From an uncultured Alphaproteobacteria bacterium (lineage in GTDB: Bacteria; Pseudomonadota; Alphaproteobacteria; Methylaequorales; Methylaequoraceae): a DNA stretch of 64,000 nt. Shown one piece after another: positions 9,943 to 27,432 of the stretch; positions within the stretch are counted from its first letter, which is position 1, and every line of letters starts with the position of its first letter. Under the pieces are notes generated by a model. It was not told the origin of the DNA. It saw only the letters and a list, made by a program, of their open reading frames with translations, and searched no databases. The position numbers and the translations under genes are program-made. The DNA is taken from positions 66,987 through 130,986 of the forward strand of contig CABZFH010000004.1 in the NCBI GenBank assembly GCA_902524895.1. The letters are read 5' to 3'.

Positions 9943-10020
9943 AGATTGGTATTTTATAATATTTTTTATTGATTATCCATGTATGTTTATGTAATAAGTT
10001 AAAAACTAATTAAAAGAACA

Positions 10021-10648: not shown

Positions 10649-10651
10649 AAT

Positions 10652-10882: not shown

Positions 10883-11033
10883 AAAGTACTTTTCTTGAAA
10901 GTTTAAGAAATTAAAAATTAAAATATTATTATACCTTGAAAGTAAACGACTTCAAAAAAAAAAATTAATCATTAATATTTTTATTGTTTTTATTGTTTTT
11001 ACTGATAAAAATTTATTATAAAGATATTTTTAA

Positions 11034-11109
11034 GCCGGTTTAGCTCAGTTGGTAGAGCAACTGATTTGTAATCAGTAGGTCGGGTGTTCGAGTCACCCAA
11101 CCGGCACCA
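11034..11109 (+). tRNA. tRNA-Thr (anticodon UGU), CCA encoded
   Basis: Hand-folded cloverleaf: acceptor GCCGGTT/AACCGGC, D stem GCTC/GAGC, anticodon stem ACTGA/TCAGT with loop TTTGTAA, T arm GGGTG-TTCGAGT-CACCC. Total 76 nt. Confidence 0.95.
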
Positions 11110-11506
11110 CTCAGCAAGAATTTCAGCGATCATATCAAAAATGAATGCCACTAGGGCTCCAAAGTTGACTTATCAAAATTTAATTAGAGTTCTTTAGTTC
11201 TGTTTGTCTTTAGAACAACTTGTTATTGTATGTATAAGGAAGAATATAAAATTTAATACTTCATAATCTTTGTCATCTGACCAGAATCTTTGTGATTAGA
11301 GATAAAGTGAGATTGATAGACTTCAAAATGTATTCGATTTAACTGTTTCATTAATATCATTTTATTAACTTCTTTCTCTCTAATAGATTTATTTTTATTA
11401 TTATTAATTATGTCTAGTTCTATTAGTCTAGTTTTACTTAGTCTAAGACTAAAATCTTTTTTAGTGTGAGACGAAAATGCTTTTAATGAGTGTCTTTATT
11501 TAGACC

Positions 11507-11530
11507 AAAAAAAAAGGTCCAATAAGACCT
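11507..11530 (-). terminator. Putative rho-independent terminator downstream of the DprA-like/PRTase pair
   Basis: On the minus strand, AGGTC-TTATTG-GACCT is followed by a run of nine T. The stem is only 5 bp. Confidence 0.45.
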
Positions 11531-11654
11531 ATTTTAAAATTCAATTTTTACATACTATTAAACTCTAACTTGTTTGTCAAATTAATTTTTTTAAATCACT
11601 GAATTTATTGTATTTTTTTTTTTAAGATTCTTAAATACTTCAACTTAATTATTT

Positions 11655-12545
11655 TCAATAAAATACTTCAAGATCCTCTTTACGTGATAGTGATTTTATA
11701 TCTCTATCGTTCAATAATTTCAAATTACCTGATGTTTTTTCTGGATCTTTAAAACGAAAATGATGATTCCAACAATAAATTTTTTTCCCTTGCTTTCTTG
11801 CAAACTCTATAGTTTTCATGGAACCACCATTTATTTTTGATTCAATTAATATAATACTTTCGCTGATACCACTTTGAAGTCTATTCCTTTCAATAAAGAA
11901 TGCCTTATTCGGTTTACTTTCCAAAGTATACTCAGTAATCAAACAACCATTTTTATTTAAAATCTGATTTGCTAATTCTTGATTTGCTTTTGGATAAATA
12001 TTTTTTAAACCAGAAGGTAGTATGCTTATAGTTGTTCCCTTTTCTAAAGAACCTTTATGAGCATTTTCATCACATCCAAGAGCTAATCCACTAACAATAG
12101 TTACTCCGTTAGACGCTAATTTTTCACTCACCTTGTATGAAATATCCTTTGCGTAATCACTTGAATCTCTAGCACCAATTATAGCAATTTTTTTTTTTGA
12201 TTTTAAAAGAGGTAAATTTCCCATTGAAAATAACAGTGTTGGTGGATTATTTATTATTCTAAACTCATTCGGGTACTGATCATCATAATAATTGATAATT
12301 TTAACCCCCATTTGTTGGCATTTATCAATCTCTCTATTTGCAGCGTCATATGCAATATCAAAACTGGTTTTCGAAATTTCAGGAAGTTTAATTTTTTGTT
12401 TAGATATAACATTAAATGACTTAAAAAACTCCTCTGAAGACTCAAAATCTTTATTTAAATATTTAGAAATCGTAAGAGCTTTAACATTTCCAATTTTTGG
12501 TAATCCCTTTAATGATAAAAGTGTAGTTGTGCTAGGCTTAAACAA
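11655..12545 (-). CDS. DprA/Smf-like (SLOG-fold) protein
   Basis: Rossmann core IAIIGARDSSDYAKDISYKVSEKLASNGVTIVSGLALGCDENAHKGSL matches the DprA signature GxR..S.yG...SGlAxGiDxxAH. Confidence 0.75.
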   Translation of the reverse strand: MFKPSTTTLLSLKGLPKIGNVKALTISKYLNKDFESSEEFFKSFNVISKQKIKLPEISKTSFDIAYDAANREIDKCQQMGVKIINYYDDQYPNEFRIINNPPTLLFSMGNLPLLKSKKKIAIIGARDSSDYAKDISYKVSEKLASNGVTIVSGLALGCDENAHKGSLEKGTTISILPSGLKNIYPKANQELANQILNKNGCLITEYTLESKPNKAFFIERNRLQSGISESIILIESKINGGSMKTIEFARKQGKKIYCWNHHFRFKDPEKTSGNLKLLNDRDIKSLSRKEDLEVFY

Positions 12546-13482
12546 AGGATACAGTTCTTCCTAGGGCTAAACAAATTACTCGATGTGCACCATTTTCAAT
12601 GAGTTTTTTTTTACAAGCCTGAATTGAAGTACCAGAAGTTATTATGTCATCAAGAAGAAGAATAATTTTTCCTTTGATTACATCTAACCATCTTGAGTTT
12701 ATAGATACTGATTTATACTCAATATTTGCATCTCTAACACCACCAGTGGACTTCTTTTCTAGTGAAATAATTCTTTTGATCACGCTCAAATTAGTATCAC
12801 TTTCATAGACCCATTTTTTATCTGCACTTTCATAAAATGATATTACTGCACTCCCATTAGCTATATTAAAATTATCCTCTGATGATAGATTTTTTGCAAT
12901 AATATCAATCGCATTTGCGTTATCCTGTGTAGAAGAAGGTACGGTTGTAATAATAAATTTTCCATTTTGATTTATTAAACCCGTGAGAATGTTAGTAAAG
13001 TATTCAATAGCTTTAATTTTCCTATCTTTAATAGCCAATAATTTTTTTGAAAATTCTATGTCATCTGCGTTAGTTGCGAATTGTAATTTCCTAGTTGGAA
13101 TATATTTACCTATATAAAAAATATTTTTATTGTAGGGATCATCTATATTTTCCTTTAAACTACCATCAATTTCATGCAGCCTATCGGGAGCAAATCTAAA
13201 AACCTCATACCAACTATTTTTTGGGGATAATGTTTCAGTATTCTGTTTTTGTAAAAATCGAGATTCTTTAATTGAATTTACTGCGTGTATATATTGAACA
13301 AGCTTTTTTGATCTTCTATTTACCCAAGAAACACTTTTATTCTTTTTATTTAAAATATTATTTGTAAATCTTCTTGTAAATTCCTCTATTACACCCTCAA
13401 TTTCCTTTAAGCTATTACACCTTGCAGCAATTACCATTAATTCAGTAGCTTTTTTTTTGAAATAAATTTTTTTCAAATCCAT
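12538..13482 (-). CDS. ComF-type phosphoribosyltransferase-domain protein with an unassigned N-terminal ~190 aa
   Basis: PRPP loop ILLLDDIITSGTS, upstream TVPSS, and a C-terminal ALGRT. No ComFC-type Cys4 zinc finger is present. It overlaps the DprA-like gene by 8 nt. Confidence 0.7.
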   Translation of the reverse strand: MDLKKIYFKKKATELMVIAARCNSLKEIEGVIEEFTRRFTNNILNKKNKSVSWVNRRSKKLVQYIHAVNSIKESRFLQKQNTETLSPKNSWYEVFRFAPDRLHEIDGSLKENIDDPYNKNIFYIGKYIPTRKLQFATNADDIEFSKKLLAIKDRKIKAIEYFTNILTGLINQNGKFIITTVPSSTQDNANAIDIIAKNLSSEDNFNIANGSAVISFYESADKKWVYESDTNLSVIKRIISLEKKSTGGVRDANIEYKSVSINSRWLDVIKGKIILLLDDIITSGTSIQACKKKLIENGAHRVICLALGRTVSFV

Positions 13483-13488
13483 TATTTT

Positions 13489-13704
13489 ATGATAATTAAT
13501 TATATTATGAAAATAAATGATAAATATAAAAATGCAGACTCAAACAAAGAAGCAATCAAATTACTTCCTGAAATTATAACCTTTTTAGGCTCTGTATCAG
13601 CTGCCGAAGGAAGAGCATTAAATGATAGGGATGCAGCAACTGAACTAACAAAATTAGCTGACATAGCGGAAGAAATTAAAAAAAAAATTGGATACGGATA
13701 TTAA
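13489..13704 (+). CDS. Hypothetical small protein
   Basis: Plain ORF. The real start may be the internal ATG at about 13507. It is divergent from the PRTase gene with almost no spacer. Confidence 0.35.
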   Translation: MIINYIMKINDKYKNADSNKEAIKLLPEIITFLGSVSAAEGRALNDRDAATELTKLADIAEEIKKKIGYGY

Positions 13705-13735
13705 ATTAATTATAATTCATAAATTAAGGTTTTAA

Positions 13736-13873
13736 ATGGTAATTATAACAGTACCCCCTCAAAGAGAAGATTTTAAATCTGATGATGAATTTAATATTCA
13801 TTACAATAAATGGAAAAAAGAATTCGACAAAATGATAGATAACAAAGACAAATCTGTGGTTAAACATTTTTAA
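13736..13873 (+). CDS. Hypothetical small ORF (45 aa)
   Basis: Below the track cutoff. It reads MVIITVPPQREDFKSDDEFNIHYNKWKKEFDKMIDNKDKSVVKHF. Confidence 0.25.
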   Translation: MVIITVPPQREDFKSDDEFNIHYNKWKKEFDKMIDNKDKSVVKHF

Positions 13874-14014
13874 AATTAATTAATTATTAAATCTTAAGTT
13901 TTAAAGCCTTTCACTTTTGTTAAGCACTAATATTTTTTTATTGCTAAATTAAAAACTTTTTTCCACTCTTTATATGCTTTTTTATAATCTCTATCTAACT
14001 TGTAATCATTTCTT

Positions 14015-14242
14015 TTAGGTGGTGGAAGGATAGTTGTCATTTTGTCTGTTTTTTTCCTTGAAATACTTTTTTTTCCATTTAATTGAATTTAACAAAAAAA
14101 AGATGATAAGCCCCGGTTGGATTATGATAAAAAGCCAGACATTAATCTCTTCATAAGACATCCCTAAATAGTCACTAGCTTTATAAAGAAATTTAATGCA
14201 CCAATTACATACTTCAATCATCACTTGATCGTACATAAACAC
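14015..14242 (-). CDS. Hypothetical small membrane protein
   Basis: ORF with one clear TM helix (VWLFIIIQPGLIIFFLLNSI). Confidence 0.3.
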   Translation of the reverse strand: MFMYDQVMIEVCNWCIKFLYKASDYLGMSYEEINVWLFIIIQPGLIIFFLLNSIKWKKKYFKEKNRQNDNYPSTT

Positions 14243-14304
14243 TCCTTGTTCATTTTAAATTAATATATACTTGGTATTTATAAAATTCCAAATTAATTTG
14301 GGGT

Positions 14305-14350
14305 ATAGTAACGACCTACCGTTCTGGAATAGTAACGACCTAACCGTTCT
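14305..14350 (+). promoter_or_regulatory. Two direct repeats ATAGTAACGACCTA(A)CCGTTCT; candidate operator or iteron upstream of the small-ORF block
   Basis: Copy 1 is 14305-14325 and copy 2 is 14329-14350, identical except for one inserted A. They are unusually G+C-containing for an intergenic stretch here. Confidence 0.45.
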
Positions 14351-14396
14351 ATCTCAAACAGTAAAAAGTTTCCATACATTCAAATTTTCTTGGTTA

Positions 14397-14438
14397 ATAA
14401 TAATTAACAAAGGAGAAATAATAATTAACAAAGGAGAA
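14397..14438 (+). repeat. Perfect 21-bp tandem duplication (2 copies plus a 5-nt partial third) that duplicates a Shine-Dalgarno sequence
   Basis: ATAATAATTAACAAAGGAGAA occurs at 14397-14417 and again at 14418-14438, followed by ATAATGATG. The AAGGAG is therefore present twice. Confidence 0.85.
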
Positions 14439-14441
14439 ATA

Positions 14442-14609
14442 ATGATGAGAAAGAAACAAACTAATTATCTTGAAGAAGCAACTAATAGATTTGTCGAAGA
14501 GCTCAGAAGGAAAGGTATAAAAGTTCAAACTTTAGAACCTAAAGACAGTGTAACATCGACAATAACTTTTATTCCAAGAATAAAAATTAAGGAGAGAAAT
14601 AATGGTTAA
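14442..14609 (+). CDS. Hypothetical small protein (55 aa); shortened version of track ORF 14271..14609
   Basis: An ATGATG lies directly after the second AAGGAG copy. The upstream part of the track ORF runs through the repeats and looks non-coding. Confidence 0.4.
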   Translation: MMRKKQTNYLEEATNRFVEELRRKGIKVQTLEPKDSVTSTITFIPRIKIKERNNG

Positions 14610-14698
14610 AATCATTTGGAAAGAATTAAAAGAAGATGATCCGATTTTTAACACTGGATTTATCATTTCACCTATTAAAATAAAAAAAAGGACTAAAA

Positions 14699-14920
14699 AT
14701 GTTAAGTGAAAAAGAATCAAATGAGCTATCCCAAAGAGTGATTTCAGTACTGTCAAAAGAGAGGTTATCAAAATGTTCTAAAATGCAATTACAGATGATG
14801 GATCGGTTAATGGATCAGGAGCTCGAAGAAGTGAAAAACGATCCGACACAGATCACAGATCCTCAAATAATGGGAATATACGAAATGGTGATGGATCATC
14901 TTCAACCGTATGATTTTTAA
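14699..14920 (+). CDS. Hypothetical small acidic protein
   Basis: ORF preceded by another unlisted 35-codon ORF (14603-14710) that it overlaps, giving phage-like tight packing. Confidence 0.4.
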   Translation: MLSEKESNELSQRVISVLSKERLSKCSKMQLQMMDRLMDQELEEVKNDPTQITDPQIMGIYEMVMDHLQPYDF

Positions 14921-15011
14921 AAAAATATTATACATTTTTTATATCAAGTAATTGATATGGGGAGTTTATTCTCCCCTTTCCCTCTTTTGGATTTAAAGAT
15001 ATAGTTAAATT

Positions 15012-15317
15012 ATGTGGATTCAGTTTAACAATGCATTCTTATCAATAGTAGAAAATAGAGATAATGAACTAGAGTTATTAGTTAGAGCTCGTATTAAAGG
15101 TGACATTGAGAAAATTTTTCCTGAAGCTCATGTATTTGAAGATGATAGTGCAGATTATAAATACAGAGCATTTATTTCAAAGGCTAAGGTTGCGGCTAGA
15201 ATGATGCTTAAGATAACAGAGATTAACTATGATAATTTTAAAAATTCTGTAAAAGAGATTACAAGAAAAAATGCGTATAGCAATATTTGGGTAGAATTAA
15301 GGAAACTTCAAAAATAA
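15012..15317 (+). CDS. Hypothetical protein
   Basis: ORF of 101 aa with no recognised motif. Confidence 0.4.
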   Translation: MWIQFNNAFLSIVENRDNELELLVRARIKGDIEKIFPEAHVFEDDSADYKYRAFISKAKVAARMMLKITEINYDNFKNSVKEITRKNAYSNIWVELRKLQK

Positions 15318-15323
15318 ATTAAC

Positions 15324-16616
15324 TCAAAGTTTTGATATCTCATCATATATTGTATTTCTAACTTTGTTTATCTCATCTTTATTTTTAATAAACTTTTTTG
15401 CAACATCTAAAATTTTATTAGCTGCAGATTCTCTTTTTTTTGATCTAACGTTATTAATCTCAACTACCTTTTCTTGATTTCTAACTTGTGATCTTTGTCT
15501 ACAAATTTCGGAAATATGCTTAGTGATTAATGAGATATGATTAACAAAATTATAGTAAAAGTTATTTTTTTCAAAATCATCTCGTCTACCATTGGGGACA
15601 AGCTTTGAACTTATTATATGAAGCTCACCAATGGTCCAAGCATTGAATCTTGACTCTTGAAACTGATCTAAAAAAATTGTGTTTTCACCGATTTGAATAT
15701 TTCCAACCCGCGCTCTTAATCCAGGAAGTGCAGTACTTTTATTTATGGCACCAAAATATCCATGATTTAACAAAAAGCCATAGGCTAAAAGTTCATTATC
15801 ATTATCCACTATCTCCAACTTTTCGACACCATTAATATAATCAGTAGTTGTTGAATTAAAGTCATATGAATTTCTAAATGTTCTAGTTATCGCTGTTTCA
15901 CCATTAAGTAAAATATTATGATACGAAATTTTAATTTTTTCTCTCAGAAGTTCATTTATTTGATCTTTAAATTTAAAGCTATCTGAAAAAGGAACAGGAG
16001 CAACTTGAGATAGATACTTCTCGATCATCATATTGTTAAGAAGTACATCATTTTTTAATCTGAGTATTTTCTTCAACTCAACCTTAAAATAATGAGCACT
16101 TGTATCACTTGTTTCTTGTAGTTCATGAGTTGTTGAATCATCAACTATTTTTTTTAAATCTGATTTAATTGAATGATCAACCAATAATTTTTTTAATTGT
16201 CGACAATCCCACTTCAAAGTATTTATTTTATTTTCTCCAGCGCATTTACTTGTAAACACTAACTCCTGACAATAAGCTAATCCTGCTAAACGTCCAATAC
16301 CTCTAAACCCTCTAGCATCTGTACCTCTTTTAGGACTGTTTCCAAAAGAAAGAAGTATTTTTGCAAACTCATTACTTGATAGGCCAGTGCCGTTGTCTTC
16401 GATAATAATTGATCTATCTATGTAATTAATATTGATTTTTATTTTACCGTCATCTTCTATTGATTTTAATAACCCTTTACTAACAGCTTTTTCTATTGAA
16501 TCAGCAGAGTTTTGTATATACTCGCGATAAATTGTCAAAGGGTCTAAATACATTCCTGAAGTAAGTAACTCAAGGATGTCTTTACCTATTGTTATTTGTT
16601 TTAAACTACTATTCAT
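15324..16616 (-). CDS. GHKL-superfamily ATPase (HATPase_c_3 / MORC-Hsp90-MutL-like)
   Basis: Bergerat-fold motifs: N box EYIQNSADS, G1 IEDNGTGLS, G2 GFRGIGRLAG. Confidence 0.75.
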   Translation of the reverse strand: MNSSLKQITIGKDILELLTSGMYLDPLTIYREYIQNSADSIEKAVSKGLLKSIEDDGKIKININYIDRSIIIEDNGTGLSSNEFAKILLSFGNSPKRGTDARGFRGIGRLAGLAYCQELVFTSKCAGENKINTLKWDCRQLKKLLVDHSIKSDLKKIVDDSTTHELQETSDTSAHYFKVELKKILRLKNDVLLNNMMIEKYLSQVAPVPFSDSFKFKDQINELLREKIKISYHNILLNGETAITRTFRNSYDFNSTTTDYINGVEKLEIVDNDNELLAYGFLLNHGYFGAINKSTALPGLRARVGNIQIGENTIFLDQFQESRFNAWTIGELHIISSKLVPNGRRDDFEKNNFYYNFVNHISLITKHISEICRQRSQVRNQEKVVEINNVRSKKRESAANKILDVAKKFIKNKDEINKVRNTIYDEISKL

Positions 16617-16621
16617 GATAA

Positions 16622-18235: not shown

Positions 18236-18288
18236 ACCTATATATAGTATCAGAAAACTCTATTAAATACAAAATGTAGGAAAAAATT

Positions 18289-19326: not shown

Positions 19327-19330
19327 AAAA

Positions 19331-20779
19331 TTAAAGTTTTAAAATTTCTTTTATAATTGAACTAAAATTATACTTAATTTTTCTTTTAAACTCAAATTCG
19401 TCTATGTCACCGATTAAAAGCTTTGCAGACCAATACTTAGCATTTACTAAACTGTCTATCCATTCATCTATAGAATTTTTCATTATTAAGTTATAGATAA
19501 AACAGTCTTTATTTTGAGAGATTCTATGAATTCTATCTTGTGCTTGAAGGTAATCGTCCAAACTTAAAGTTCTATCATAAAAAATACAGTGATTAGCCAC
19601 TGTTAATGTTAAACCCTCCTTAGATGATTGAGGAGTAGCAATTATAATTTTTAAATCATCGTTATTCTTGAATTTTTCAATAGAGCTGTTTCGCTGTTCT
19701 ATAGTTTGTCTACCATGAAGCTCTAGTGGTTTATATTGGCTTAGCACTTTAAACAACCAATAAATGTTCTTAAGATAGGCTGACCAAATAATAAGTTTTT
19801 CTCCGTTAGCTATAATTTTATTTATTATTTTCAAAAGTGATTTAAATTTTCCAGGCTTATTATTATAACTATCATCAATTAAAAAAGGGTTACTAGTTAT
19901 TTGAATCAATCTTATAATTCTTTTAAGAATTGGCTCAGCGTCTTCTTCAACTTTTTTTCCAGATTTTTGGATAAAGATTCTAAATTCCTCTTTTAATTCT
20001 AAATATTTTAAATGTTGATTGTGTTCCCAGTCTGTTTGAACATTTATAAAGTGTTTTTTTGGCAACTTGACTCCACTTTTTTCTTTGGTCTCCCTGACTG
20101 TAAAGTGGCTTATTTTTTCAAAAATTAAAGTTAGGTTATTAGAAAATCTAAGTTGTGCATTTTGGTCATTTTGAAGCTTATTATTTAAATCAAATTTTTT
20201 TTTAAATGACTCAAAATCGTAACCAAGAGCTCTACCATCATCTAAAAATTTAATCTGTGACCAAATATCATAAGGCCTGTTTGCAGAGGGAGTTCCTGTC
20301 ATAATACATTTTTTTTTAAAAGAATTTGATATTTCTAAAAAATTTTGAGTCAATTTACTTAATGGATTTTTTATTTTTGCAGACTCATCTAATATAATTC
20401 CAACTTCATTGTTCAAAGCCAGCTTTTCAATTCTTGGTCTTTCAAGATTAATAACCTCAAAATTTGCTAATAAAAAATTAACATTAGCAAAAAAAAGATC
20501 AGAATTATTTTCAATATTCTGTGATAAAATCCCATAGCTTAAATGACTGTGTTTAGCAATTTCATCTGTCCAATTTTTTATTAAACCTTTTTTAGTAAAA
20601 ACAATGACTTTTGATAAAATTTGATTTTTTAACCAATATAAAATTAAATCAATGGCAATCTTAGACTTACCTAAACCTTGTTCTAAAAAAATAGCACAAT
20701 ACTCAAGGTCTTTAAGTTTTTCATAAGACCTGGATTGTACATCAAGTGCAGTTGAGATACTTTTAAAATAATTTTTCAT
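19331..20779 (-). CDS. SNF2-family helicase/translocase
   Basis: Motif I GLGKSKIAI, motif II ILDESAKIKN, motif III MTGTPSANRPYDIWSQIKFL, motif VI QAQDRIHRISQ. Confidence 0.8.
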   Translation of the reverse strand: MKNYFKSISTALDVQSRSYEKLKDLEYCAIFLEQGLGKSKIAIDLILYWLKNQILSKVIVFTKKGLIKNWTDEIAKHSHLSYGILSQNIENNSDLFFANVNFLLANFEVINLERPRIEKLALNNEVGIILDESAKIKNPLSKLTQNFLEISNSFKKKCIMTGTPSANRPYDIWSQIKFLDDGRALGYDFESFKKKFDLNNKLQNDQNAQLRFSNNLTLIFEKISHFTVRETKEKSGVKLPKKHFINVQTDWEHNQHLKYLELKEEFRIFIQKSGKKVEEDAEPILKRIIRLIQITSNPFLIDDSYNNKPGKFKSLLKIINKIIANGEKLIIWSAYLKNIYWLFKVLSQYKPLELHGRQTIEQRNSSIEKFKNNDDLKIIIATPQSSKEGLTLTVANHCIFYDRTLSLDDYLQAQDRIHRISQNKDCFIYNLIMKNSIDEWIDSLVNAKYWSAKLLIGDIDEFEFKRKIKYNFSSIIKEILKL

Positions 20780-21213
20780 TCTTTTATCGATTTTGAAATG
20801 ACTAAGATATCCTTAAATTCATTTATACTTTTTAAGTAACTAAAAACTCCCAAATACGAAATGCAGGGTACAGCTAAAACAAACAATGAATTTAATTTTT
20901 TTAATTGGGGTTTATTCAGAAAATCTAAGTATGTTCTTATTTGTGTATCTGCTTTATGTTTTAAAGCAACATCTCCATAATTTTTTCTCTCATAAAGCTC
21001 TGAAAATGTTTTTGCTTCCCCTATAATTAAAAAATTTAGACTATATGAAAAAGCGGCAAAATCAGGAAGCTTTGAGCCACCAGGTTGTGGTAAGTTGGCT
21101 AACCATGAGCGATCAGAGGCAGTTTGAATAAAATCATTTGAAGTTTGCAAATATTTTTTCCTGAACCATAACTGAATGTAATCAGTTAGCATGTGATGTA
21201 ATTTTGATGTCAC
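20776..21213 (-). CDS. Hypothetical protein, possible PD-(D/E)xK nuclease fold
   Basis: LPDFAAF followed 15 residues later by IIGEAKT fits D...ExK spacing. Both neighbours overlap it by 4 nt. The call is weak. Confidence 0.35.
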   Translation of the reverse strand: MTSKLHHMLTDYIQLWFRKKYLQTSNDFIQTASDRSWLANLPQPGGSKLPDFAAFSYSLNFLIIGEAKTFSELYERKNYGDVALKHKADTQIRTYLDFLNKPQLKKLNSLFVLAVPCISYLGVFSYLKSINEFKDILVISKSIKE

Positions 21214-22325
21214 TCTTCATGTATATGAGAATCAACAGCACTAGTAAGTGCCTCAAGTTCTCCTGATATTTCTTTAATTAAAAGTTGTATTTCGTGAAAA
21301 TCATTAGATTGAGCTCTTAAAGTATCCTCATCATAATAAGGTTGTAAAGCAGCTGCAAAAGCTTGCAATTCTTCGAGTAATTTTCTTTTTATAGAAGGAG
21401 ATTTATCTTTATCTTGTTTTCTTTCATTAATAAATTCTTGAATTAGTGGAGTAGCATCTTTTTGAAACTGCTTGGATAGAAACCTTTTTCTATAACTTGG
21501 TTTTTCAAACATTCTTGCTAACGGAGCTACTTGTCTAGCGTTTACCAACTTACCTGTTCTAACAGCCTTTGCAAATTCAATATCATCAAATTCTGGCTCA
21601 AATTTTGACTTATATTTGTTATATTCTTCAAAAAAAGCAAATAATTGTGGAGTGAAAGGTTTAGGTCCTTCAATGCATTCTTCGTGGTTTTGGTCAAAAA
21701 ACTTTTTTACTCTTTCCATATGATTAAATGCATTAATCCTTAATTCTAAACTCCCTCTTGCAGCACTACTTCCGCATTTAGCAAGTATTTGTTCATATTG
21801 AACAGAATCTTTTTTTTTTATGTACGCTAATTTTTTTGCCCTTGAATATGGGGGCCATTCCTTAACACCGACAATATGAGCAATCGCCATAACATCCTCA
21901 AAATCATCTTCATTCTCTAAGACACAGCAGATAATTTTATTTGTCCATGGCTCAGGGTTATTCTGTGAATTTAAATCTTTGTAAATCGCAAGCCTTGTAT
22001 TACCCTCAGATACGATATATTTATATTCACCTTCAGGTTTGGGTAATTCTAAAGCATGTATTGGATTAATAATACCTTTCTTAGCTTTTATAGAGGCTTG
22101 CAATTGGGCAAAATCTGAAGTAGATGATTGCATTTTGTCAGCGTCAATCATAAAAGATAAAAGTAGTTGACATTTATCTTGAGGAATTTCATTTTCATCA
22201 TCTGGACTAATAAATATGGGAGAACTTGTAGCACTTGTTTCAAGACTTTGTCCAAAAAAGCGAGGATTCTTAGGATTGAACTTTATTTCTTTTATTGGAA
22301 TATTTTTAACTTCTTTAATTGCCAT
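21210..22325 (-). CDS. ParB/sulfiredoxin-fold N-terminal domain protein (paralog B)
   Basis: IPIKEIKFNPKNPRFF and IVSEGNTRLAIY. Confidence 0.65.
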   Translation of the reverse strand: MAIKEVKNIPIKEIKFNPKNPRFFGQSLETSATSSPIFISPDDENEIPQDKCQLLLSFMIDADKMQSSTSDFAQLQASIKAKKGIINPIHALELPKPEGEYKYIVSEGNTRLAIYKDLNSQNNPEPWTNKIICCVLENEDDFEDVMAIAHIVGVKEWPPYSRAKKLAYIKKKDSVQYEQILAKCGSSAARGSLELRINAFNHMERVKKFFDQNHEECIEGPKPFTPQLFAFFEEYNKYKSKFEPEFDDIEFAKAVRTGKLVNARQVAPLARMFEKPSYRKRFLSKQFQKDATPLIQEFINERKQDKDKSPSIKRKLLEELQAFAAALQPYYDEDTLRAQSNDFHEIQLLIKEISGELEALTSAVDSHIHEE

Positions 22326-22335
22326 TTTTTAATTA

Positions 22336-24354
22336 TTACATAAAATTCACTCCATTGGTAATATTATTCTTGAAAACTTTTTTTCTCCCACTAACGTAAT
22401 GAAATAGTTTCATACCGTCTAGTCTTTCTGTTCTACCTACACCTCTTTTAAAAAAAAATCTCTCTTCTGGTTTAATTTTTTTTTCTTTAGCTGTTTTGGA
22501 CTCGTTATATTTTTTATAATAAATTTCAATACCATCAAAATTAGTTTGACAGTCTATTATACAAATTTTTTTATTGCTAATATGTCTGAAAATTTTTAAG
22601 TCCCATGAATTAGAATGTTCTGAACCCATAGTATCATTCAATAAATTATCGATTACTCTGAGATACTTATCATCGTCTTCATAATCATCTTCTTCAATAC
22701 CAATTATTTTTTTATCATCTGTTACTCCAATTAATACGGTCCCTCCTTTGGTGTTTAATAATGAATTCACAGCTTTTAAAGTACTAAATCTTATTACGGG
22801 GTCTTTAGGATTATTTGTCTTTAAATCTTTACTAAATGTTGATTTTAATTCTACAACTGCTGATTCATGATTATCTATCATCGCATCAATTCTGGCAGAT
22901 TCTTCTTGTCTTAATTTTGACGAATCATCTTTATCTATCGTGGTGTCATTAAAAATTTCTAGTCGTTCAAGAATAAAAGCAGCATCTTTTTCTTTAAACT
23001 TTTGTAAAGCTCCCATATTAAAACAGAGTTCTTTAATTACATTTAAATCATGAAGCTCCGAAAACTTTCCCTGTCTTAGATAAAAACTAAACGGTTGTTT
23101 ACATTTTTTTAAAAAACAAAACTCATGCTCTTTTGATAGGTTTTCGTAATTATAAAAAAAATCAAAAAATTCATCTTTAAGTTTATAAATAAAGTCATTA
23201 ATTTCTGATTCGTTAAGTAAATTTTTCTTAAACTTTTCTATTGTAGTATTTTCAAAACTTTTGATCTTCAAACATTTATCGTCAATCTCTAATGTTTTTG
23301 TAAAATGCATAAAACTTTCATATGCTTTTAATTTAATTACACTTGCATTCTTAGCTTCCTCATCAAATTCTTCCGCTATTTTATCTAATTCCTCATCTCG
23401 TTCTTTTGAAGTTTTTCCCTTAAACTCCCTGTCTAAACAAACTGCTTCCTCCCAGGGACTATTAAATTGCATTTGTAGTCTTTTTCTATAGGGAATAAAA
23501 TCATTCTTCTCATTTAATGAATCTAATAAAAGTTCTTTTTTTGATTTTTCAAGATCCCCATGAACACAGAATTGTTTTAAGACAGACAAATTATTTTTTT
23601 TTGCAAGAGCAGCAAAGTGATTTCTCCAAAGAATAGAAGAAAAATCGCCCTCTTCATCACCTTTTTGTATTGATGCAATAAATTTTTCATAAAAAATTTT
23701 TTTATTCACAGTTTGTGCCGTAAATATATCATTCAGGTCTCTAGATTTTACTAGCCATGAAATTATAGAAAACTTATTTTCATCTAGTTTATAATCATTC
23801 ATTAAATCAACAATTTGCTTGATCTGATTAATTTTCTCTGGAGTTACTTTAAATTTTTTACTCACCTTATCTATGCTGAACTTGTTTAGGAATGACACAA
23901 TGTTCAAGGCTTTTTCATAGGAAGACCAATGACTGGGAAATAAAGCTTTATTTGGAAGGCCTTCTTGGAATTTCTTTGATAATTCTTCATCAATAATTAA
24001 GCAAGGAATTCTGATAAAATGTGTGGGAAATTTTTTTTTATTTTCTAGATATCTTTTTTTAAGTTTTAATAAACTAACATATCTCCTAGCACCCTCAATA
24101 ATAAGGTATGAAGGAACAATTTCATGATTTGACCCAATAACATTAAAATCTGATAGTATAACTTTCAAAGGCTCAAAAATACCTTCATTTTCAATACTAT
24201 CCATTAAATGTTTTAATTGATTAGAATCTGATAGAATATCTATTGCTTCTTTTTGTGATGATGGAACTTTACTTGCAAATCGTGCGGAATTTAAATCAAT
24301 TTTTAATTGAAACGCATTTAGTTGCTTGTATTGAGTTTTTGAATTAAGTGTCAT
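22336..24354 (-). CDS. ParB-like domain protein (paralog C) fused to a C-terminal AlbA_2/Schlafen-type domain
   Basis: The N-terminus has YLIIEGARRYVSL. The central module is shared with paralog A. The C-terminus ESAVVELKSTF...NTKGGTVLIGVTDDKKIIGIE matches the AlbA_2 pattern E.K....GG.l.iGv.d.g.i.Gi. Confidence 0.65.
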   Translation of the reverse strand: MTLNSKTQYKQLNAFQLKIDLNSARFASKVPSSQKEAIDILSDSNQLKHLMDSIENEGIFEPLKVILSDFNVIGSNHEIVPSYLIIEGARRYVSLLKLKKRYLENKKKFPTHFIRIPCLIIDEELSKKFQEGLPNKALFPSHWSSYEKALNIVSFLNKFSIDKVSKKFKVTPEKINQIKQIVDLMNDYKLDENKFSIISWLVKSRDLNDIFTAQTVNKKIFYEKFIASIQKGDEEGDFSSILWRNHFAALAKKNNLSVLKQFCVHGDLEKSKKELLLDSLNEKNDFIPYRKRLQMQFNSPWEEAVCLDREFKGKTSKERDEELDKIAEEFDEEAKNASVIKLKAYESFMHFTKTLEIDDKCLKIKSFENTTIEKFKKNLLNESEINDFIYKLKDEFFDFFYNYENLSKEHEFCFLKKCKQPFSFYLRQGKFSELHDLNVIKELCFNMGALQKFKEKDAAFILERLEIFNDTTIDKDDSSKLRQEESARIDAMIDNHESAVVELKSTFSKDLKTNNPKDPVIRFSTLKAVNSLLNTKGGTVLIGVTDDKKIIGIEEDDYEDDDKYLRVIDNLLNDTMGSEHSNSWDLKIFRHISNKKICIIDCQTNFDGIEIYYKKYNESKTAKEKKIKPEERFFFKRGVGRTERLDGMKLFHYVSGRKKVFKNNITNGVNFM

Positions 24355-24395
24355 AAATTAATAGTATAAAATTAAATAAATAATTCAAAAAATTT
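24355..24395. promoter_or_regulatory. 41-bp divergent intergenic region that must hold the promoters of the seven-gene operon and the GxxExxY gene
   Basis: Inferred from gene geometry only. The region is pure A/T-rich (contains TATAAAAT). Confidence 0.35.
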
Positions 24396-24890
24396 ATGAA
24401 AAAATTCTTATACAAACTTGAAGATATTTCAAAAAAAGTATTTAAACAACTATCAGGACTTAAAGAAGAAGATTTTCAAACCGCTCTTGGTATTGAATTT
24501 AGAAAAAATAAAATTGACTTTATGCGTGAAGCTGGACTTGAAGTCTTCTACGATAATCATCCAATTAGTCTTCATGAACTCGACTTTCTAGTTCCTCCCT
24601 GTATGGATTTAAAAGAACCCATCATCATTGAAACAAAAGTTAATTCGGCCATAGCAGAAGATCATCGTCAACAATTGAGGAATTACCTTCGTTCAGCCGC
24701 AAAAAATGATAATGCTATCATTAAAAAAATTAAAACAGGATTAATACTTAACTTTAAAAAGAATGAAGTTTTTACCGAAAGTGTTCGTCAACGCAAAGAA
24801 ACTCAAGATATTGAGATTGAGGTATGGACATATGAAAAAAACAAGTTTACTCAACAATTCTCTAATAAAAAGATCGAAGAAAAATCCTAA
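24396..24890 (+). CDS. GxxExxY-family protein (PD-(D/E)xK nuclease superfamily)
   Basis: GLKEEDF (a GxxExxF variant), followed by LDFLV and IIIETK (D...ExK). Confidence 0.55.
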   Translation: MKKFLYKLEDISKKVFKQLSGLKEEDFQTALGIEFRKNKIDFMREAGLEVFYDNHPISLHELDFLVPPCMDLKEPIIIETKVNSAIAEDHRQQLRNYLRSAAKNDNAIIKKIKTGLILNFKKNEVFTESVRQRKETQDIEIEVWTYEKNKFTQQFSNKKIEEKS

Positions 24891-25021
24891 AATTTTTTTT
24901 TGGCCATTATGTTATACACTATAAGCCCTTACCCTACCTGCAAAAAATTAAAAAATTGATTTCAGAAAACTAATAGATTATTAATTTATCTAACAGTTTT
25001 AACTTTTATTACGAGTTATAG

Positions 25022-25300
25022 ATGAAGAATTTAAAGGGTACTGATTTCCAGAAAATGGTTTGGAATGAGATAAAAAAAATTCCCAAGGGGAAAATAATTA
25101 CATACAAAGAACTTGCTATAAAGATAGGTAAGCCGAAAGCGTATCGTGCTGTTGCTAGTGCGTGTGCTAAGAATCCGTTATTAGAAATTATTCCTTGTCA
25201 TAGAGTTATAAGAAGTGACGGTAAAATGGGTAATTATATGGGTGATAAAGGAATAGAAAGAAAGAAAAAACTACTTGAAAAAGAAGGTATAAAATTTTAG
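25022..25300 (+). CDS. Methylated-DNA-protein-cysteine methyltransferase-family protein (C-terminal DNA-binding/acceptor domain only, 92 aa)
   Basis: Active-site motif IIPCHRVIRSDG, preceded by the helix-turn-helix region TYKELAIKIGKPKAYRAVASA. Confidence 0.8.
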   Translation: MKNLKGTDFQKMVWNEIKKIPKGKIITYKELAIKIGKPKAYRAVASACAKNPLLEIIPCHRVIRSDGKMGNYMGDKGIERKKKLLEKEGIKF

Positions 25301-25310
25301 GAATACATTT

Positions 25311-25514
25311 ATGATTCAAAAAACACTTATTATCATTGGAGTTTTATTTATTCTTGTAGGGTTATTATATCCATTTTTGAGAGACATTGGATTGGGTAGA
25401 TTACCAGGTGATATTATTATTAAAAAAGAAAACTCTTCTTTTTATTTTCCAATAGTTACCTGTATTGTTGTGAGTGTAATTATTAGTTTAATACTGATGT
25501 TTTTCAGAAAATAA
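25311..25514 (+). CDS. Small two-TM membrane protein (DUF2905-like)
   Basis: 67 aa with two TM helices and an RLPGDI motif, as I remember for DUF2905. Confidence 0.55.
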   Translation: MIQKTLIIIGVLFILVGLLYPFLRDIGLGRLPGDIIIKKENSSFYFPIVTCIVVSVIISLILMFFRK

Positions 25515-25524
25515 CAGAGAAACC

Positions 25525-26148
25525 TTACTTTATTACATCAAAAATTGCATTTTCTGCAAAGTTAGTTGATCTGCAAGTTCGTGTAGGAATACTTCCTGAA
25601 ATAGGATTGATAACATTTATTGTTTGATAGCCTCCTGATACAAAACTATAAGTTTGGTTTAGTTTAGGATCATAATACCCAAGTGCATGTTGTGTTGAAA
25701 ACGTATAATTTGTATTAATACTTATTTTTGTAGATTCATTATCAATTTTTTGTATATCGATATTCATTTTTGCTTCAAGTACTGCCAATAAGCCAGTTTT
25801 AGCATAATCAATGTAAGAACCTTTGAATTCTTCACCAGTAAAAAAAAGAGTATATTCAAAATCACCACAATCTATAAAATCTTCAACTCCTTTTGAACCA
25901 AATGATAAAGTTAAAAATCCAGAATCTTTGTCTAAGTTTTCGATTTTAAAAAAAGAATCACTTACAAAATCAATTACAGAGGTCCAAGTTTCGTCAAAAT
26001 TTTTATTAATAATTACGGAATTTTTGAAATTAGTATCATCAATATTTGGTGGAACATATTTACCGATATTTTCTGTAATTTTTTCTACTTTTGTTGCACA
26101 CGAAGAAAGAAGAATTGTCATAAATAGAGATAAAAGAAATCTTTTCAT
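25525..26148 (-). CDS. Hypothetical lipoprotein
   Basis: Signal peptide with lipobox LLSSC. Confidence 0.5.
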   Translation of the reverse strand: MKRFLLSLFMTILLSSCATKVEKITENIGKYVPPNIDDTNFKNSVIINKNFDETWTSVIDFVSDSFFKIENLDKDSGFLTLSFGSKGVEDFIDCGDFEYTLFFTGEEFKGSYIDYAKTGLLAVLEAKMNIDIQKIDNESTKISINTNYTFSTQHALGYYDPKLNQTYSFVSGGYQTINVINPISGSIPTRTCRSTNFAENAIFDVIK

Positions 26149-26310
26149 CTAAATTATATATGAATCTAAATTATAAACTCAAGCAATGATAAAATATTTA
26201 ATAAGGTATTAAGTAAACTAACACATAAATCTCTCAGATTAAATTTACATTAGTTTTACTTAATTATTAATGGTATCAATAAGTAGTTTGATTTTCAAAT
26301 TTAACTGAAA

Positions 26311-26362
26311 TTTTGATTGGTAATGAATAGGTCGGGTTTTAAAGGCACTTAGCTTACACCAC
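26311..26362 (+). repeat. Decayed direct copy of the 3' half of tRNA-Thr (att-like island boundary)
   Basis: By hand alignment, 26329-26362 (AGGTCGGGTTTTAAAGGCACTTAGCTTACACCAC) matches tRNA positions 11077-11110 (AGGTCGGGTGTTCGAGTCACCCAACCGGCACCAC) at 24 of 34 positions without gaps. The first 9 and last 6 positions all match. The 14 nt upstream match at 11 of 14. Confidence 0.5.
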
Positions 26363-26756: not shown

Positions 26757-27119
26757 CTACTTTTTTGGCGGATATTTAACAATTATATAAATTGAAATCA
26801 AAAATCCTGAAAAATACAAAGCTAAAAAAACAGAACTGGGAAAATTAAAGAAAATTATTTTTGATAAATATTTGCTTATAAAGGTTTGATTTGTAACGAT
26901 TCCTCTTAAATCATTTTCTAAAATAGTCAAGGGGCAAATAATACCAAACAAACTTTCAATTGTAACTAATGTAATTAAGAACAAATGTGTATATCTTATT
27001 TTTTTACTACTTACCCAATTCCATTTTTTGGAATATCCATAAGGCACTAGACCAAAAAGGCTAATTATAAAAAAAACAATCAAAAAATGAATTATTAAAA
27101 TTAAATCAGCTACTAGCAT
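26757..27119 (-). CDS. Hypothetical multi-pass membrane protein (DUF2784-like)
   Basis: 120 aa with four hydrophobic helices and CPLT in helix 3. The family assignment is from memory. Confidence 0.45.
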   Translation of the reverse strand: MLVADLILIIHFLIVFFIISLFGLVPYGYSKKWNWVSSKKIRYTHLFLITLVTIESLFGIICPLTILENDLRGIVTNQTFISKYLSKIIFFNFPSSVFLALYFSGFLISIYIIVKYPPKK

Positions 27120-27130
27120 ATTTTAACAAA

Positions 27131-27424: not shown

Positions 27425-27432
27425 GGTATTTT

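What the first reader, a model, noticed from the sequence alone, without database searches (positions are those of the whole stretch)
11034..26362. About 15-kb accessory island anchored on tRNA-Thr, bounded by a decayed copy of the tRNA 3' half, with no integrase
Everything between tRNA-Thr (11034-11109) and 26362 looks accessory: the DprA/PRTase pair, tiny phage-like ORFs, the seven-gene operon, GxxExxY, a short MGMT, and small membrane and lipoproteins. At 26329-26362 a 34-nt stretch aligns without gaps to the tRNA 3' end at 24/34 positions (the first 9 and last 6 positions all match). The similarity continues about 14 nt upstream into the anticodon arm (11/14). That is the classic footprint of site-specific integration into a tRNA gene (attL inside the tRNA, attR as a partial duplicate). 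The divergence of the repeat and the absence of any integrase or excisionase ORF suggest an old, immobilised island. The 545 bp next to the tRNA (11110-11654) have no ORF.
Basis: partly seen in the sequence, partly recalled or inferred. Interest (0 to 1): 0.6.

Follow-up and report, generated by a model that had tools for sequence, protein, structure and literature searches.

The report
Layered defence island at tRNA-Thr
This is a real but ordinary kind of genomic island: anti-phage defence genes inserted next to a threonine tRNA gene of a small marine alphaproteobacterium. It is stuck there because a deletion removed its integrase and one attachment site, while relatives keep intact, mobile versions at the same spot.

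Summary
tRNA-Thr(UGU) lies at 11034-11109. The tRNA-like stretch at 26314-26361/2 matches its 3' part at 35/48 (24/34 for the last 34 nt). No dinucleotide shuffle of 400 reached that, and it is the best non-self match in the 1.43-Mb genome.

The region has two layers.

- Layer 1 (11110-24939) holds ShosTA, small ORFs, a seven-gene GHKL/radical-SAM/SNF2/ParB-like operon and GxxExxY. It belongs to a "type A" island family that in relatives (G054, G010, G017, G020) ends GxxExxY-integrase-attR, with 50-79-nt perfect repeats of the tRNA 3' part. The window keeps only the last ~9 codons of that integrase (…RAYSV*, 24912-24939, minus strand). A deletion at the 8-nt microhomology CCCTACCT (24932-24939) removed the rest and the attR.
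- Layer 2 (24940-26361) holds MGMT, DUF2905 and a lipoprotein. It is therefore an older attR relic, orthologous in the sister species.

Relatives carry DISARM, type III R-M and other cargo at this site, and some have no large insertion there. Base composition is not atypical.

tRNA-linked islands with partial tRNA repeats are already described in SAR11. Neighbouring features of this window were noted before in this scan.

The parts
11034..11109 (+). tRNA-Thr(UGU). It is the attL/attB target. The repeated block starts at tRNA nucleotide 29 (window 11062; TGATTTG, anticodon stem/loop) and runs past the 3' end.
   Evidence: 76 bits; in relatives, perfect direct repeats of 50-79 nt start exactly at this position.
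11110..11654 (.). ORF-free stretch beside the tRNA. The first ~100 nt are the conserved tRNA-downstream segment (CTCAGCAAGAATTTCAG plus decayed copies of the twin GGGGCTCCA motif). 11498-11620 is a terminator-like segment shared with another island.
   Evidence: no ORF of 50 aa or more. (alignment A2 with G010, G017, G013, G020). (11498-11620 is 79% identical to G010 island L005:2945-3069; a similar piece lies at G000:C8:20685-20769).
11655..12545 (-). ShosA: DprA-like antitoxin of the ShosTA defence system.
   Evidence: PADLOC ShosA, 2.2e-69. (PF02481, 1.9e-62).
12538..13482 (-). ShosT: phosphoribosyltransferase toxin of ShosTA.
   Evidence: PADLOC ShosT, 2e-19. (Pribosyltran); found in 1 of 42 family genomes, this one only.
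13489..15317 (.). Block of small ORFs (71, 75, 112, 73 and 101 aa) plus a conserved intergenic element at 14246-14417. The 75-aa and 101-aa ORFs recur in relatives' islands at 85-94% aa identity. No phage-family support.
   Evidence: no Pfam hits; only two PHROG hits near E=0.01. (collinear with G054, G017 and G013 islands).
15324..24354 (-). Seven-gene operon: GHKL/HATPase_c_3 (430 aa), radical-SAM-like (537 aa), 345 aa, SNF2 helicase (482 aa), 145 aa, 371 aa, and 672 aa with a Schlafen/AlbA_2 domain. Candidate defence system; main cargo of layer 1.
   Evidence: domains; no PADLOC system match. (radical-SAM gene in 4 of 42 family genomes at 80-95% aa). (first two genes 89-96% aa, the rest 25-54%, in G017 and G054).
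24396..24890 (+). GxxExxY / PD-(D/E)XK_3 protein. In four of the five intact type-A islands (G054, G010, G017 and L040? no — G054, G010, G017) it sits immediately before the integrase; in G020 a DrmMII-like methyltransferase is there instead.
   Evidence: PF13366, TIGR04256. (84-88% aa, directly upstream of intA in G010, G017, G054; absent from the G020 locus).
24912..24939 (-). Remnant of the last ~9 codons and stop of the type-A integrase gene (reads GRVRAYSV*). The deletion junction lies at the 8-nt microhomology CCCTACCT (24932-24939).
   Evidence: alignment A3. (blastn w24395-24939 = G054rc 16382-16927, ending 28 nt inside intA). (intA C-terminus GGGRAYSV* versus window GRVRAYSV*); homology to G001's sequence downstream of its attR starts at 24932.
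25022..26148 (.). Older layer: short MGMT (25022-25300, +), DUF2905 (25311-25514, +), 207-aa lipoprotein (25525-26148, -; lipobox LLSSC).
   Evidence: 77-93% aa and up to 0.90 identity at 4-fold sites across genera, where core genes show 0.26-0.54; 87-95% nt identity to the sister species here, against mostly 94-100% in the genes right of the relic.
26276..26362 (+). Decayed type-B attR. The island-side arm (26276-26313) is followed by the displaced tRNA-Thr 3' part (26314-26361/2; 35/48).
   Evidence: (nhmmer 5.9e-22).
26757..28146 (-). Right flank (core): DUF2784, a decayed MGMT paralogue (27131-27436, stop at the active-site Cys) and an SNase-domain protein.

Best explanation
The region 11110-26361 is a composite, immobilised genomic island built by successive site-specific integrations into the 3' part of tRNA-Thr(UGU).

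Mechanism, shown in relatives and inferred here: a P4-type tyrosine integrase (Arm-DNA-binding, central and catalytic domains) recombines an element-borne copy of the tRNA 3' segment with the chromosomal tRNA. That segment runs from the anticodon stem to a few to ~30 nt past the CCA end. Integration regenerates the tRNA (attL) and leaves the displaced 3' part as a direct repeat (attR) at the far end.

The first event was a 'type B' element. It left MGMT-DUF2905-lipoprotein and the now decayed attR with its arm at 26276-26361.

Later a 'type A' element entered the regenerated tRNA. Its backbone ends in GxxExxY, integrase and attR. Its cargo here is ShosTA plus a seven-gene GHKL/radical-SAM/SNF2/ParB-like operon.

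A microhomology-mediated deletion (CCCTACCT, 24932-24939) then removed almost all of the integrase gene, the type-A attR and about 100 nt of tRNA-downstream sequence. This locked the island in place.

Functionally, the island is a defence-gene carrier at a hotspot where relatives hold other defence systems.
For: Integration is shown in relatives. Perfect direct repeats of the tRNA 3' part flank 14.7-28-kb inserts: G017 79 nt, G054 58 nt, G011 53 nt, G010 51 nt, G020 50 nt. All start at the same tRNA position.

Each of these islands has a full-length tyrosine integrase. intA (375-389 aa) lies next to attR in G010, G017, G020 and G054. intB (451 aa) lies next to the tRNA in G011. Both have Arm-DNA-bind_3, Phage_int_M and Phage_integrase domains.

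G054 is collinear with the window from the 75-aa ORF through the operon and GxxExxY. It then continues into intA and attR exactly where the window's homology stops, at 24939.

The window keeps the integrase's C-terminal codons RAYSV*. From 24932 onward it matches the sequence that in sister species G001 lies about 100 nt downstream of an intact attR.

The relic is statistically solid. It shares the type-B arm with intact attRs of G001 and G011. An orthologous relic sits at the same place in G001.

The content is accessory. ShosT is in 1 of 42 and the radical-SAM gene in 4 of 42 family genomes. Operon genes 1-2 are 89-96% aa identical across genera whose core genes are 56-72% identical.

G002 and G022 have DUF2905/lipoprotein within 55-500 nt of the tRNA.

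Ten of the 30 family genomes in which the tRNA pattern was found carry a second copy.

Cargo elsewhere includes DISARM (G020), type III R-M plus a UvrD/NERD helicase (G010), and a C5-methyltransferase plus helicase plus HNH protein (G001).
Against: - No integrase activity, excision product or attP was observed. All mechanism steps are inferred from sequence.
- The island is not compositionally distinct: GC 28.8% against 28.9% for the genome, with typical tetranucleotide distance.
- G001's intact attR beside MGMT is type B, not type A. So the type of the attR deleted from the window is inferred only from the adjoining integrase remnant.
- G001's assembly lacks the tRNA and left flank, so no same-genus empty site is available.
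- The left end of the window's island lacks the HD-domain and wHTH genes seen in other type-A islands. Part of the content, for example ShosTA, may therefore have arrived by recombination rather than with the integrase.
- The defence function of the operon is untested.
Confidence: 0.82

Rival explanations
1. One reading: one old 15-kb island (11110-26362) whose single attR has decayed in place and whose integrase has eroded away.
For: The tRNA and the decayed repeat do bracket the whole accessory region. No integrase ORF is present.
Against: An integrase 3' remnant and deletion junction lie at 24912-24939, not near 26362.

The relic carries the arm of a different element type (B) from the GxxExxY-intA backbone (A).

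Sister species G001 has an intact attR to the left of MGMT and the same relic to the right of the lipoprotein. That makes two nested boundaries.
Confidence: 0.08
2. A flexible genomic island maintained by homologous recombination. Cargo is swapped between strains by double crossovers in conserved flanks or backbone modules (panD/tRNA, the 75-aa and 101-aa ORFs, GxxExxY, lipoprotein). Integrases would play no part in how this genome obtained its content.
For: Identity is mosaic. Operon genes 1-2 are 89-96% aa identical but genes 3-7 only 25-54% in G017 and G054.

Conserved modules (101-aa ORF, GxxExxY, lipoprotein at about 85-94% aa) could serve as recombination anchors.

ShosTA replaces the usual left-end backbone.

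SAR11 islands are reported to lack mobile elements almost entirely (PMC11796062).
Against: The integrase remnant and the attR relic with its arm show that integrase-borne elements did occupy this very locus in this lineage. Intact elements with perfect repeats are common in the family. This rival is complementary rather than exclusive.
Confidence: 0.25
3. The 26314-26361 stretch is a chance match or a decayed complete tRNA pseudogene, not an attachment-site relic.
For: AT-rich background. Only 35/48 identity.
Against: 0 of 400 shuffles reach it, and the expectation is 4.5e-8 per window. The 5' half of the tRNA is not represented. The upstream 36 nt instead match the type-B island arm, with 0 of 100 shuffles matching. 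Homologous relics occur in G001 and G017.
Confidence: 0.01
4. A degraded prophage or phage satellite.
For: tRNA integration and tyrosine integrases are typical of temperate phages. Pelagiphages integrate into tRNA genes (10.1101/410191).
Against: The island's small ORFs have no structural or replication phage families. The closest integrases in GenBank phages and IMG/VR are only 24-28% identical. The identifiable large ORFs of the type-A islands examined (G010, G020) and of G001's island are defence genes.
Confidence: 0.03

Closest known systems
tRNA-anchored genomic islands with P4-type tyrosine integrases (for example the pathogenicity/fitness islands of Enterobacteria at tRNA genes; my own knowledge, including Williams 2002 on tRNA sublocations)
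   Same: Integration is into the 3' part of a tRNA gene, with the repeat starting in the anticodon stem-loop. The tRNA is regenerated and a direct repeat of the 3' segment marks the far end. The integrase has an Arm-DNA-binding N-terminal domain. Tandem accretion and loss of the integrase are both seen.
   Different: The host is a roughly 1.4-Mb streamlined marine alphaproteobacterium. In type A the integrase sits at the attR end. The cargo is defence systems. There is no compositional signature, because donors are relatives.
SAR11 (gMED) flexible genomic islands linked to tRNAs with partial tRNA repeats (Molina-Pardines et al. 2025, PMC11796062)
   Same: Islands of streamlined marine alphaproteobacteria that abut tRNA genes. 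[quoted passage not shown] The islands occupy equivalent positions between genomes.
   Different: That study found only one integrase across all its islands and does not name tRNA-Thr in the text I read. Here, in the family searched, at least six species representatives have a full-length integrase at this one tRNA-Thr site, five of them shown with perfect repeats (G010, G017, G020, G054, G011) plus AG-343-F10. Whether this family is SAR11 proper was not established.
Defence-system hotspots in integrative elements (P2/P4 hotspots, Rousset et al. 2022, PMC9122126) and defence islands generally
   Same: A conserved mobile backbone carries interchangeable anti-phage cargo at a fixed position. ShosTA is among the known cargo types.
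   Different: There are no phage or satellite genes. The backbone (HD protein, wHTH, cargo, GxxExxY, integrase) is unrelated. The copy in the window is immobilised.
ShosTA toxin-antitoxin defence system (PMC11961720, PMC12961424)
   Same: Two overlapping genes: a PRTase-domain toxin and a DprA-like antitoxin. Both match the PADLOC ShosT and ShosA models.
   Different: ShosT here has an N-terminal region of about 75 aa (up to about 190 aa by the Pfam domain limits) outside the matched model. Activity is untested.
Temperate HTVC019P-type pelagiphages integrating into tRNA-Cys/Leu (10.1101/410191)
   Same: Tyrosine-integrase-mediated integration into tRNA genes of streamlined marine alphaproteobacteria.
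   Different: The tRNA target differs, there are no phage genes, and the integrases are not closely related (28% identity or less to any phage record searched).

Membership tests
tRNA-integrated genomic island (site-specific, tyrosine integrase) | Directly abuts the 3' end of an intact tRNA gene | tested here: met
   tRNA-Thr(UGU) at 11034-11109. Accessory DNA starts at 11110.
tRNA-integrated genomic island (site-specific, tyrosine integrase) | Direct repeat of the tRNA 3' segment at the distal end (attR) | tested here: met
   For the older layer: relic at 26314-26361, 35/48, with the element arm. For the younger layer the attR is absent in the window, but perfect repeats of 50-79 nt are present in counterpart islands.
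tRNA-integrated genomic island (site-specific, tyrosine integrase) | Encodes an integrase | tested here: not met
   There is no integrase ORF and no tblastn hit in the window. Only a 28-nt remnant of the integrase 3' end survives. Counterpart islands in G054, G010, G017, G020 and G011 encode full integrases. The window copy is therefore a decayed derivative, not a functional member.
tRNA-integrated genomic island (site-specific, tyrosine integrase) | Variable presence among related genomes; an unoccupied site exists | tested here: met
   G002 and G022 have no large insertion at the site. G010, G020, G017, G011 and G001 carry other cargo. ShosT is in 1 of 42 and the radical-SAM gene in 4 of 42 family genomes.
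tRNA-integrated genomic island (site-specific, tyrosine integrase) | Atypical base composition (frequent, not obligatory) | tested here: not met
   GC is 28.8% against 28.9% for the genome. The tetranucleotide distance lies within the genome's range.
ShosTA defence system | Adjacent or overlapping ShosT (PRTase) and ShosA (DprA-like) genes | tested here: met
   PADLOC ShosA 2.2e-69 and ShosT 2e-19. The genes overlap by 8 nt.
ShosTA defence system | Toxin/antitoxin activity and phage protection | not testable with these tools
   Requires expression and phage challenge.
Prophage / phage satellite | Phage structural, packaging or replication genes | tested here: not met
   The island's small ORFs have no significant PHROG hits. 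The Pfam and PADLOC hits are defence-type.
Integrative conjugative or mobilisable element | Relaxase, coupling protein or type IV secretion genes | tested here: not met
   No such Pfam family appeared among the window's island ORFs. Relatives' islands were screened only in part: PADLOC on the largest ORFs and Pfam on three G010 ORFs.

The most novel reading that the evidence does not exclude
tRNA-Thr(UGU) in this family of streamlined marine alphaproteobacteria is the dedicated docking site of two families of small, non-phage integrative elements, types A and B. These elements act as interchangeable carriers of defence systems across genera: DISARM, type III R-M, ShosTA and an undescribed seven-gene GHKL/radical-SAM/SNF2/ParB-like system. 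The window holds a 'fossilised' carrier. If so, these elements are an overlooked route of defence-gene traffic in bacteria usually described as nearly free of mobile elements. They would also be a practical guide for finding new defence systems in such bacteria.
Probability: 0.5. Interest if true: 0.55.

Novelty: new member of a known kind. Interest (0 to 1): 0.36.

Why it matters
The island itself is a textbook object. Its value lies in the context.

It shows, with base-level junctions, how a defence island in a genome-streamlined marine bacterium was acquired by integrase-mediated insertion into tRNA-Thr. It shows how the island was stacked on an older insertion and then locked by a small deletion.

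About one third of the family's species representatives in which the site was found carry a second copy of the tRNA 3' segment there. Five of these were confirmed as intact islands with an integrase and perfect repeats. These lineages are commonly said to lack canonical mobile elements, so this gives a concrete mechanism for their 'flexible islands'.

The hotspot also flags its cargo, including the uncharacterised seven-gene operon, as likely anti-phage systems worth testing.

Tried and rejected
- Chance origin of the repeat was rejected by shuffles, an analytic tail and a genome-wide scan.
- A complete tRNA pseudogene was rejected. There is no 5'-half similarity, and the upstream sequence is an element arm.
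- Rfam on 10500-27500 at E up to 1 found only the tRNA itself and a weak antisense hit on the same bases. Nothing was found at the relic or in the 545-bp gap.
- tblastn of intA and intB against the window found no integrase remnant. The 28-nt remnant was seen only in DNA alignments.
- tblastn of the type-A left-end backbone proteins (HD-domain, wHTH) against 10900-15400 found nothing.
- PHROG search of the small ORFs, GxxExxY and the lipoprotein gave no meaningful hits, so 'phage-like' is unsupported.
- GC and tetranucleotide tests showed that the island is not distinguishable.
- The type-A arm pattern is absent from the window.
- IMG/VR and GenBank phages hold no close relatives of intA or intB.
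- A metagenome scan for the G000/G001-type relic found nothing. A scan for the type-A arm plus core found two contigs.
- G001 lacks the left flank and the tRNA in its assembly, so no same-genus empty site could be shown.
- A literature check for a described GHKL/radical-SAM/SNF2/ParB system found nothing matching.
- The exact taxon (SAR11 proper or a neighbouring clade) was not established. Relatives are named only 'uncultured Alphaproteobacteria bacterium AG-…'.

Full report
**1. The observation**

ARAGORN finds tRNA-Thr(UGU) at 11034-11109 (+), and Rfam's tRNA model scores it at 76 bits.

An ungapped scan with the last 48 nt of the tRNA gives 35/48 at 26314-26361. The last 34 nt give 24/34 at 26328-26361. 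The stated 11/14 for the preceding 14 nt is also correct.

- Genome-wide (1.43 Mb, both strands) this is the best non-self match. It beats every genuine tRNA gene (33/48 or less); the best non-tRNA background is 29/48.
- In 400 dinucleotide-preserving shuffles of the window, the maxima were 29/48 and 23/34.
- A Poisson-binomial tail gives 4.5e-8 expected hits per window.
- There is no ORF of 50 aa or more in 11152-11654.

**2. Gene content**

- 11655-13482 (-) is a ShosTA pair (PADLOC ShosA 2.2e-69, ShosT 2e-19). It is not a competence DprA/ComF pair.
- 15324-24354 (-) holds seven genes: HATPase_c_3/GHKL, radical-SAM-like, a 345-aa protein, an SNF2 helicase, a 145-aa protein, a 371-aa protein, and a 672-aa protein with a Schlafen/AlbA_2 domain. 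Weak N-terminal hits to PD-Lambda-5_A models occur in three of them. No PADLOC system matches.
- These are followed by GxxExxY (24396-24890), a 92-aa MGMT domain protein, DUF2905 and a 207-aa lipoprotein with an LLSSC lipobox.
- The small ORFs at 13489-15317 have no Pfam hit and only two PHROG hits near E=0.01.
- The left flank is a helicase, panD (PF02261) and two 76-aa ORFs. The right flank is DUF2784, an SNase-domain protein and a truncated recQ.

**3. Comparison with relatives**

I ran a DNA search of 9000-28999 against 40 relatives and fetched loci from twelve of them. The results are as follows.

- *Flank conservation.* The left flank and tRNA are conserved family-wide at 70-76% nt identity.
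- *Sites without a large insertion.* In G002 and G022, DUF2905/lipoprotein follow the tRNA within 55-500 nt.
- *Occupied sites.* G010, G020, G017, G054 and G011 carry 14.7-28-kb inserts between the tRNA and a second, perfect copy of its 3' part. The perfect repeats are 51, 50, 79, 58 and 53 nt long. All begin at tRNA nucleotide 29, in the anticodon stem.
- *Two kinds of island-side arm.*
  - Type A (…ATGAAACnGnGTGAAACrGCATTAAAAA|TGATTTG) occurs in G010, G017, G020 and G054. Each has a 375-389-aa tyrosine integrase (intA) immediately inside attR. In three of the four, GxxExxY precedes it.
  - Type B (TCAATAACTTATATGACTyTyGTrTTTTACTGAAATAC|TGATTTG) occurs in G011, with a 451-aa integrase (intB) beside the tRNA. 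It also occurs in the sister species G001, which has an intB pseudogene.
  - Both integrases have the Arm-DNA-bind_3, Phage_int_M and Phage_integrase architecture.
- *Frequency.* Of the 30 family genomes (out of 42) in which the tRNA pattern was found, 10 have two copies.
- *Cargo.* G020 carries DISARM (DrmA, DrmB, DrmMII). G010 carries a type III methyltransferase, a restriction-like protein and a UvrD/NERD helicase. G001 carries a C5-methyltransferase, a helicase and an HNH/type IV-like protein.

**4. The relic at 26276-26361**

Alignment A1 and an nhmmer profile built from the attR sites show that the window's fragment shares two things with the intact type-B attRs of G001 and G011: the tRNA part and about 38 nt of the arm (nhmmer E 5.9e-22). 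The arm pattern hits only 26276-26311 in the window, and no match occurs in 100 shuffles.

G001 has the orthologous relic at the same place, between the lipoprotein and DUF2784, with shared derived changes. G017 has a similar relic next to its lipoprotein.

At the seven positions that distinguish the two tRNA variants of the family, the window relic has the host's own state at five. G017's relic is closer to G017's tRNA, 40 against 35 of 48. The relics in different genera therefore come from separate integrations by related elements, as expected for displaced host 3' halves.

**5. Where layer 1 ends**

G054 is collinear with the window from the 75-aa ORF through the 101-aa ORF, the operon and GxxExxY. 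The identities are HATPase 89%, radical SAM 95%, SNF2 54%, the other operon genes 25-35%, and GxxExxY 84% aa. G054 then continues with intA, attR (58-nt repeat) and the lipoprotein.

The blastn alignment ends at window 24939, which is 28 nt inside G054's intA. On the minus strand the window reads GRVRAYSV*, against GGGRAYSV* in intA (alignment A3).

From 24932 rightwards the window matches the G001 sequence that lies about 100 nt downstream of G001's intact attR. The two homologies overlap in CCCTACCT (24932-24939).

The simplest reading is a microhomology-mediated deletion. It removed intA except for its last ~9 codons, the attR, and about 100 nt of tRNA-downstream DNA. Neither the type-A arm nor any other integrase trace remains.

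**6. Is layer 2 accessory?**

- Across genera, the lipoprotein is 0.82-0.90 identical at four-fold degenerate sites. DUF2905 is 0.70-0.78 identical. Core genes (panD, recQ, SNase) are 0.26-0.54 identical.
- Against the sister species, the lipoprotein (0.89), DUF2905 (0.83) and MGMT (0.63) are less similar at these sites than the core genes (0.93-0.95).
- In 150-column windows against G001, identity is 0.87-0.95 to the left of the relic, 0.79-0.82 across it, and mostly 0.94-1.00 in the genes to its right.

**7. Accessory status and composition of layer 1**

- ShosT was found in 1 of 42 family genomes.
- The radical-SAM gene was found in 4 of 42, in four different genera, at 80-95% aa identity.
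- Composition is uninformative. GC is 28.8% against 28.9%, and the tetranucleotide distance is typical. This fits donors from the same family.

**8. Wider searches**

- Relatives carrying intA are single-cell or metagenome assemblies named 'uncultured Alphaproteobacteria bacterium AG-…'.
- There are no close integrase relatives in GenBank phages (28% or less) or in IMG/VR.
- Two metagenome contigs carry the type-A arm plus core.
  - In one, the tRNA is followed after about 250 nt by arm plus core, with no island between them.
  - In the other, the core is followed by a type-B left arm with GTAACACA repeats. That indicates a tandem A-then-B arrangement.

**9. Literature**

- In SAR11 gMED genomes, seven islands are linked to tRNAs and four contain partial repeats of the same tRNA. 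Only one integrase was found across all islands (PMC11796062).
- Pelagiphages integrate into tRNA-Cys and tRNA-Leu (10.1101/410191).
- ShosTA is a characterised toxin-antitoxin defence system (PMC11961720, PMC12961424).

**10. Verdict**

This is a two-layer, immobilised, tRNA-Thr-anchored defence island, and a decayed member of a known kind of element. The integrase-mediated mechanism is shown by sequence in relatives and inferred for this genome. The defence function of the cargo is inferred from family matches for ShosTA and from context for the operon.

Other notes from this scan cover the operon, the ShosTA pair, the MGMT pseudogene and the recQ scar.

Noticed in passing
window 14246-14417 (also G000:C3:127319-127720): A roughly 170-nt intergenic element lies between the divergent 75-aa ORF and a block of tiny ORFs. 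It contains two direct repeats (ATAGTAACGACCTA[A]CCGTTCT). It recurs at 86-92% nt identity at several loci per genome in many genera of the family. That is far more conserved than core genes. It could be an operator or promoter module, or a small RNA. Rfam finds nothing.
   Followed up: partly
window 25525-26148 (-): The 207-aa lipoprotein shows about 10% nt divergence whatever the phylogenetic distance, whether same genus or other genera. Four-fold-site identity (0.82-0.90) is as high as amino-acid identity (0.83-0.89). This suggests recent spread plus near-neutral or diversifying protein evolution, yet the frame stays open in every genome. In G000, G001, G017 and G011 it sits beside a tRNA-Thr relic (type-B arm not detectable in G011's).
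   Followed up: partly
window 27131-27436 (-): A decayed MGMT paralogue lies next to the SNase gene, with a stop codon exactly at the active-site cysteine (…LTIP*YKV…). In G002 and G022 an intact MGMT occupies this position. In the window the only intact MGMT is the island-borne copy at 25022-25300.
   Followed up: partly
window 28465-29500: recQ is truncated to its C-terminal 326 aa (partial Helicase_C, Zn-binding, RQC, HRDC). Relatives, including G001 at 97.5% aa identity, have ORFs of about 600 aa. Homology to G001 ends abruptly at about 29450-29500.
   Followed up: partly
window 15324-24354 versus L008:1566-8606 (G017) and G054 (L039, reverse complement 8435-16334): The seven-gene operon is a mosaic. 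The GHKL ATPase and radical-SAM genes are 89-96% aa identical across three genera. The SNF2 helicase is 50-54% identical and the ParB-like/other genes only 25-35%. G054's last gene is half the length. This resembles a conserved enzymatic core with swapped specificity modules.
   Followed up: partly
G000:C8:15616-16872 (+), tRNA-Ser(UGA) at C8:25118-25207 (-): The genome has a third kind of tyrosine integrase (418-aa open frame) about 8 kb from a tRNA-Ser. A segment at C8:20685-20769 is similar to window 11536-11620. This may be a second integrase-bearing island.
   Followed up: no
window 11150-11172; L005, L007, L009, L010 about 40-70 nt after the tRNA: A twin motif GGGGCTCCA(C)…GGGGCTCCA(C) lies just downstream of tRNA-Thr in island-bearing genomes and is partly decayed in the window. 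In G017 the start of this region, including the first copy, is duplicated at attR. It could be a tRNA terminator or processing element, or an integrase or host-factor site.
   Followed up: no
L040 (metagenome contig Ga0181576_10007614) and L041 (Ga0315330_10111483): In L040, panD and tRNA-Thr are followed after about 250 nt by the type-A arm and a second core copy, with no island between. In L041, the type-A attR core is followed by a type-B left arm with four GTAACACA repeats (probable arm-type integrase sites) and then the lipoprotein.
   Followed up: partly
L005:2338-2940 and 3270-3587; L007:2636-3214 and 3556-3915; L010:3080-3439: Type-A islands carry a conserved wHTH (HTH_36/MarR-like) protein of about 105-120 aa near their left end (G010, G017, G020, G054). 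G010 and G017 also have a roughly 200-aa HD_4-domain protein there. Both are absent from the window's island. The wHTH protein is a candidate regulator or excision factor.
   Followed up: no
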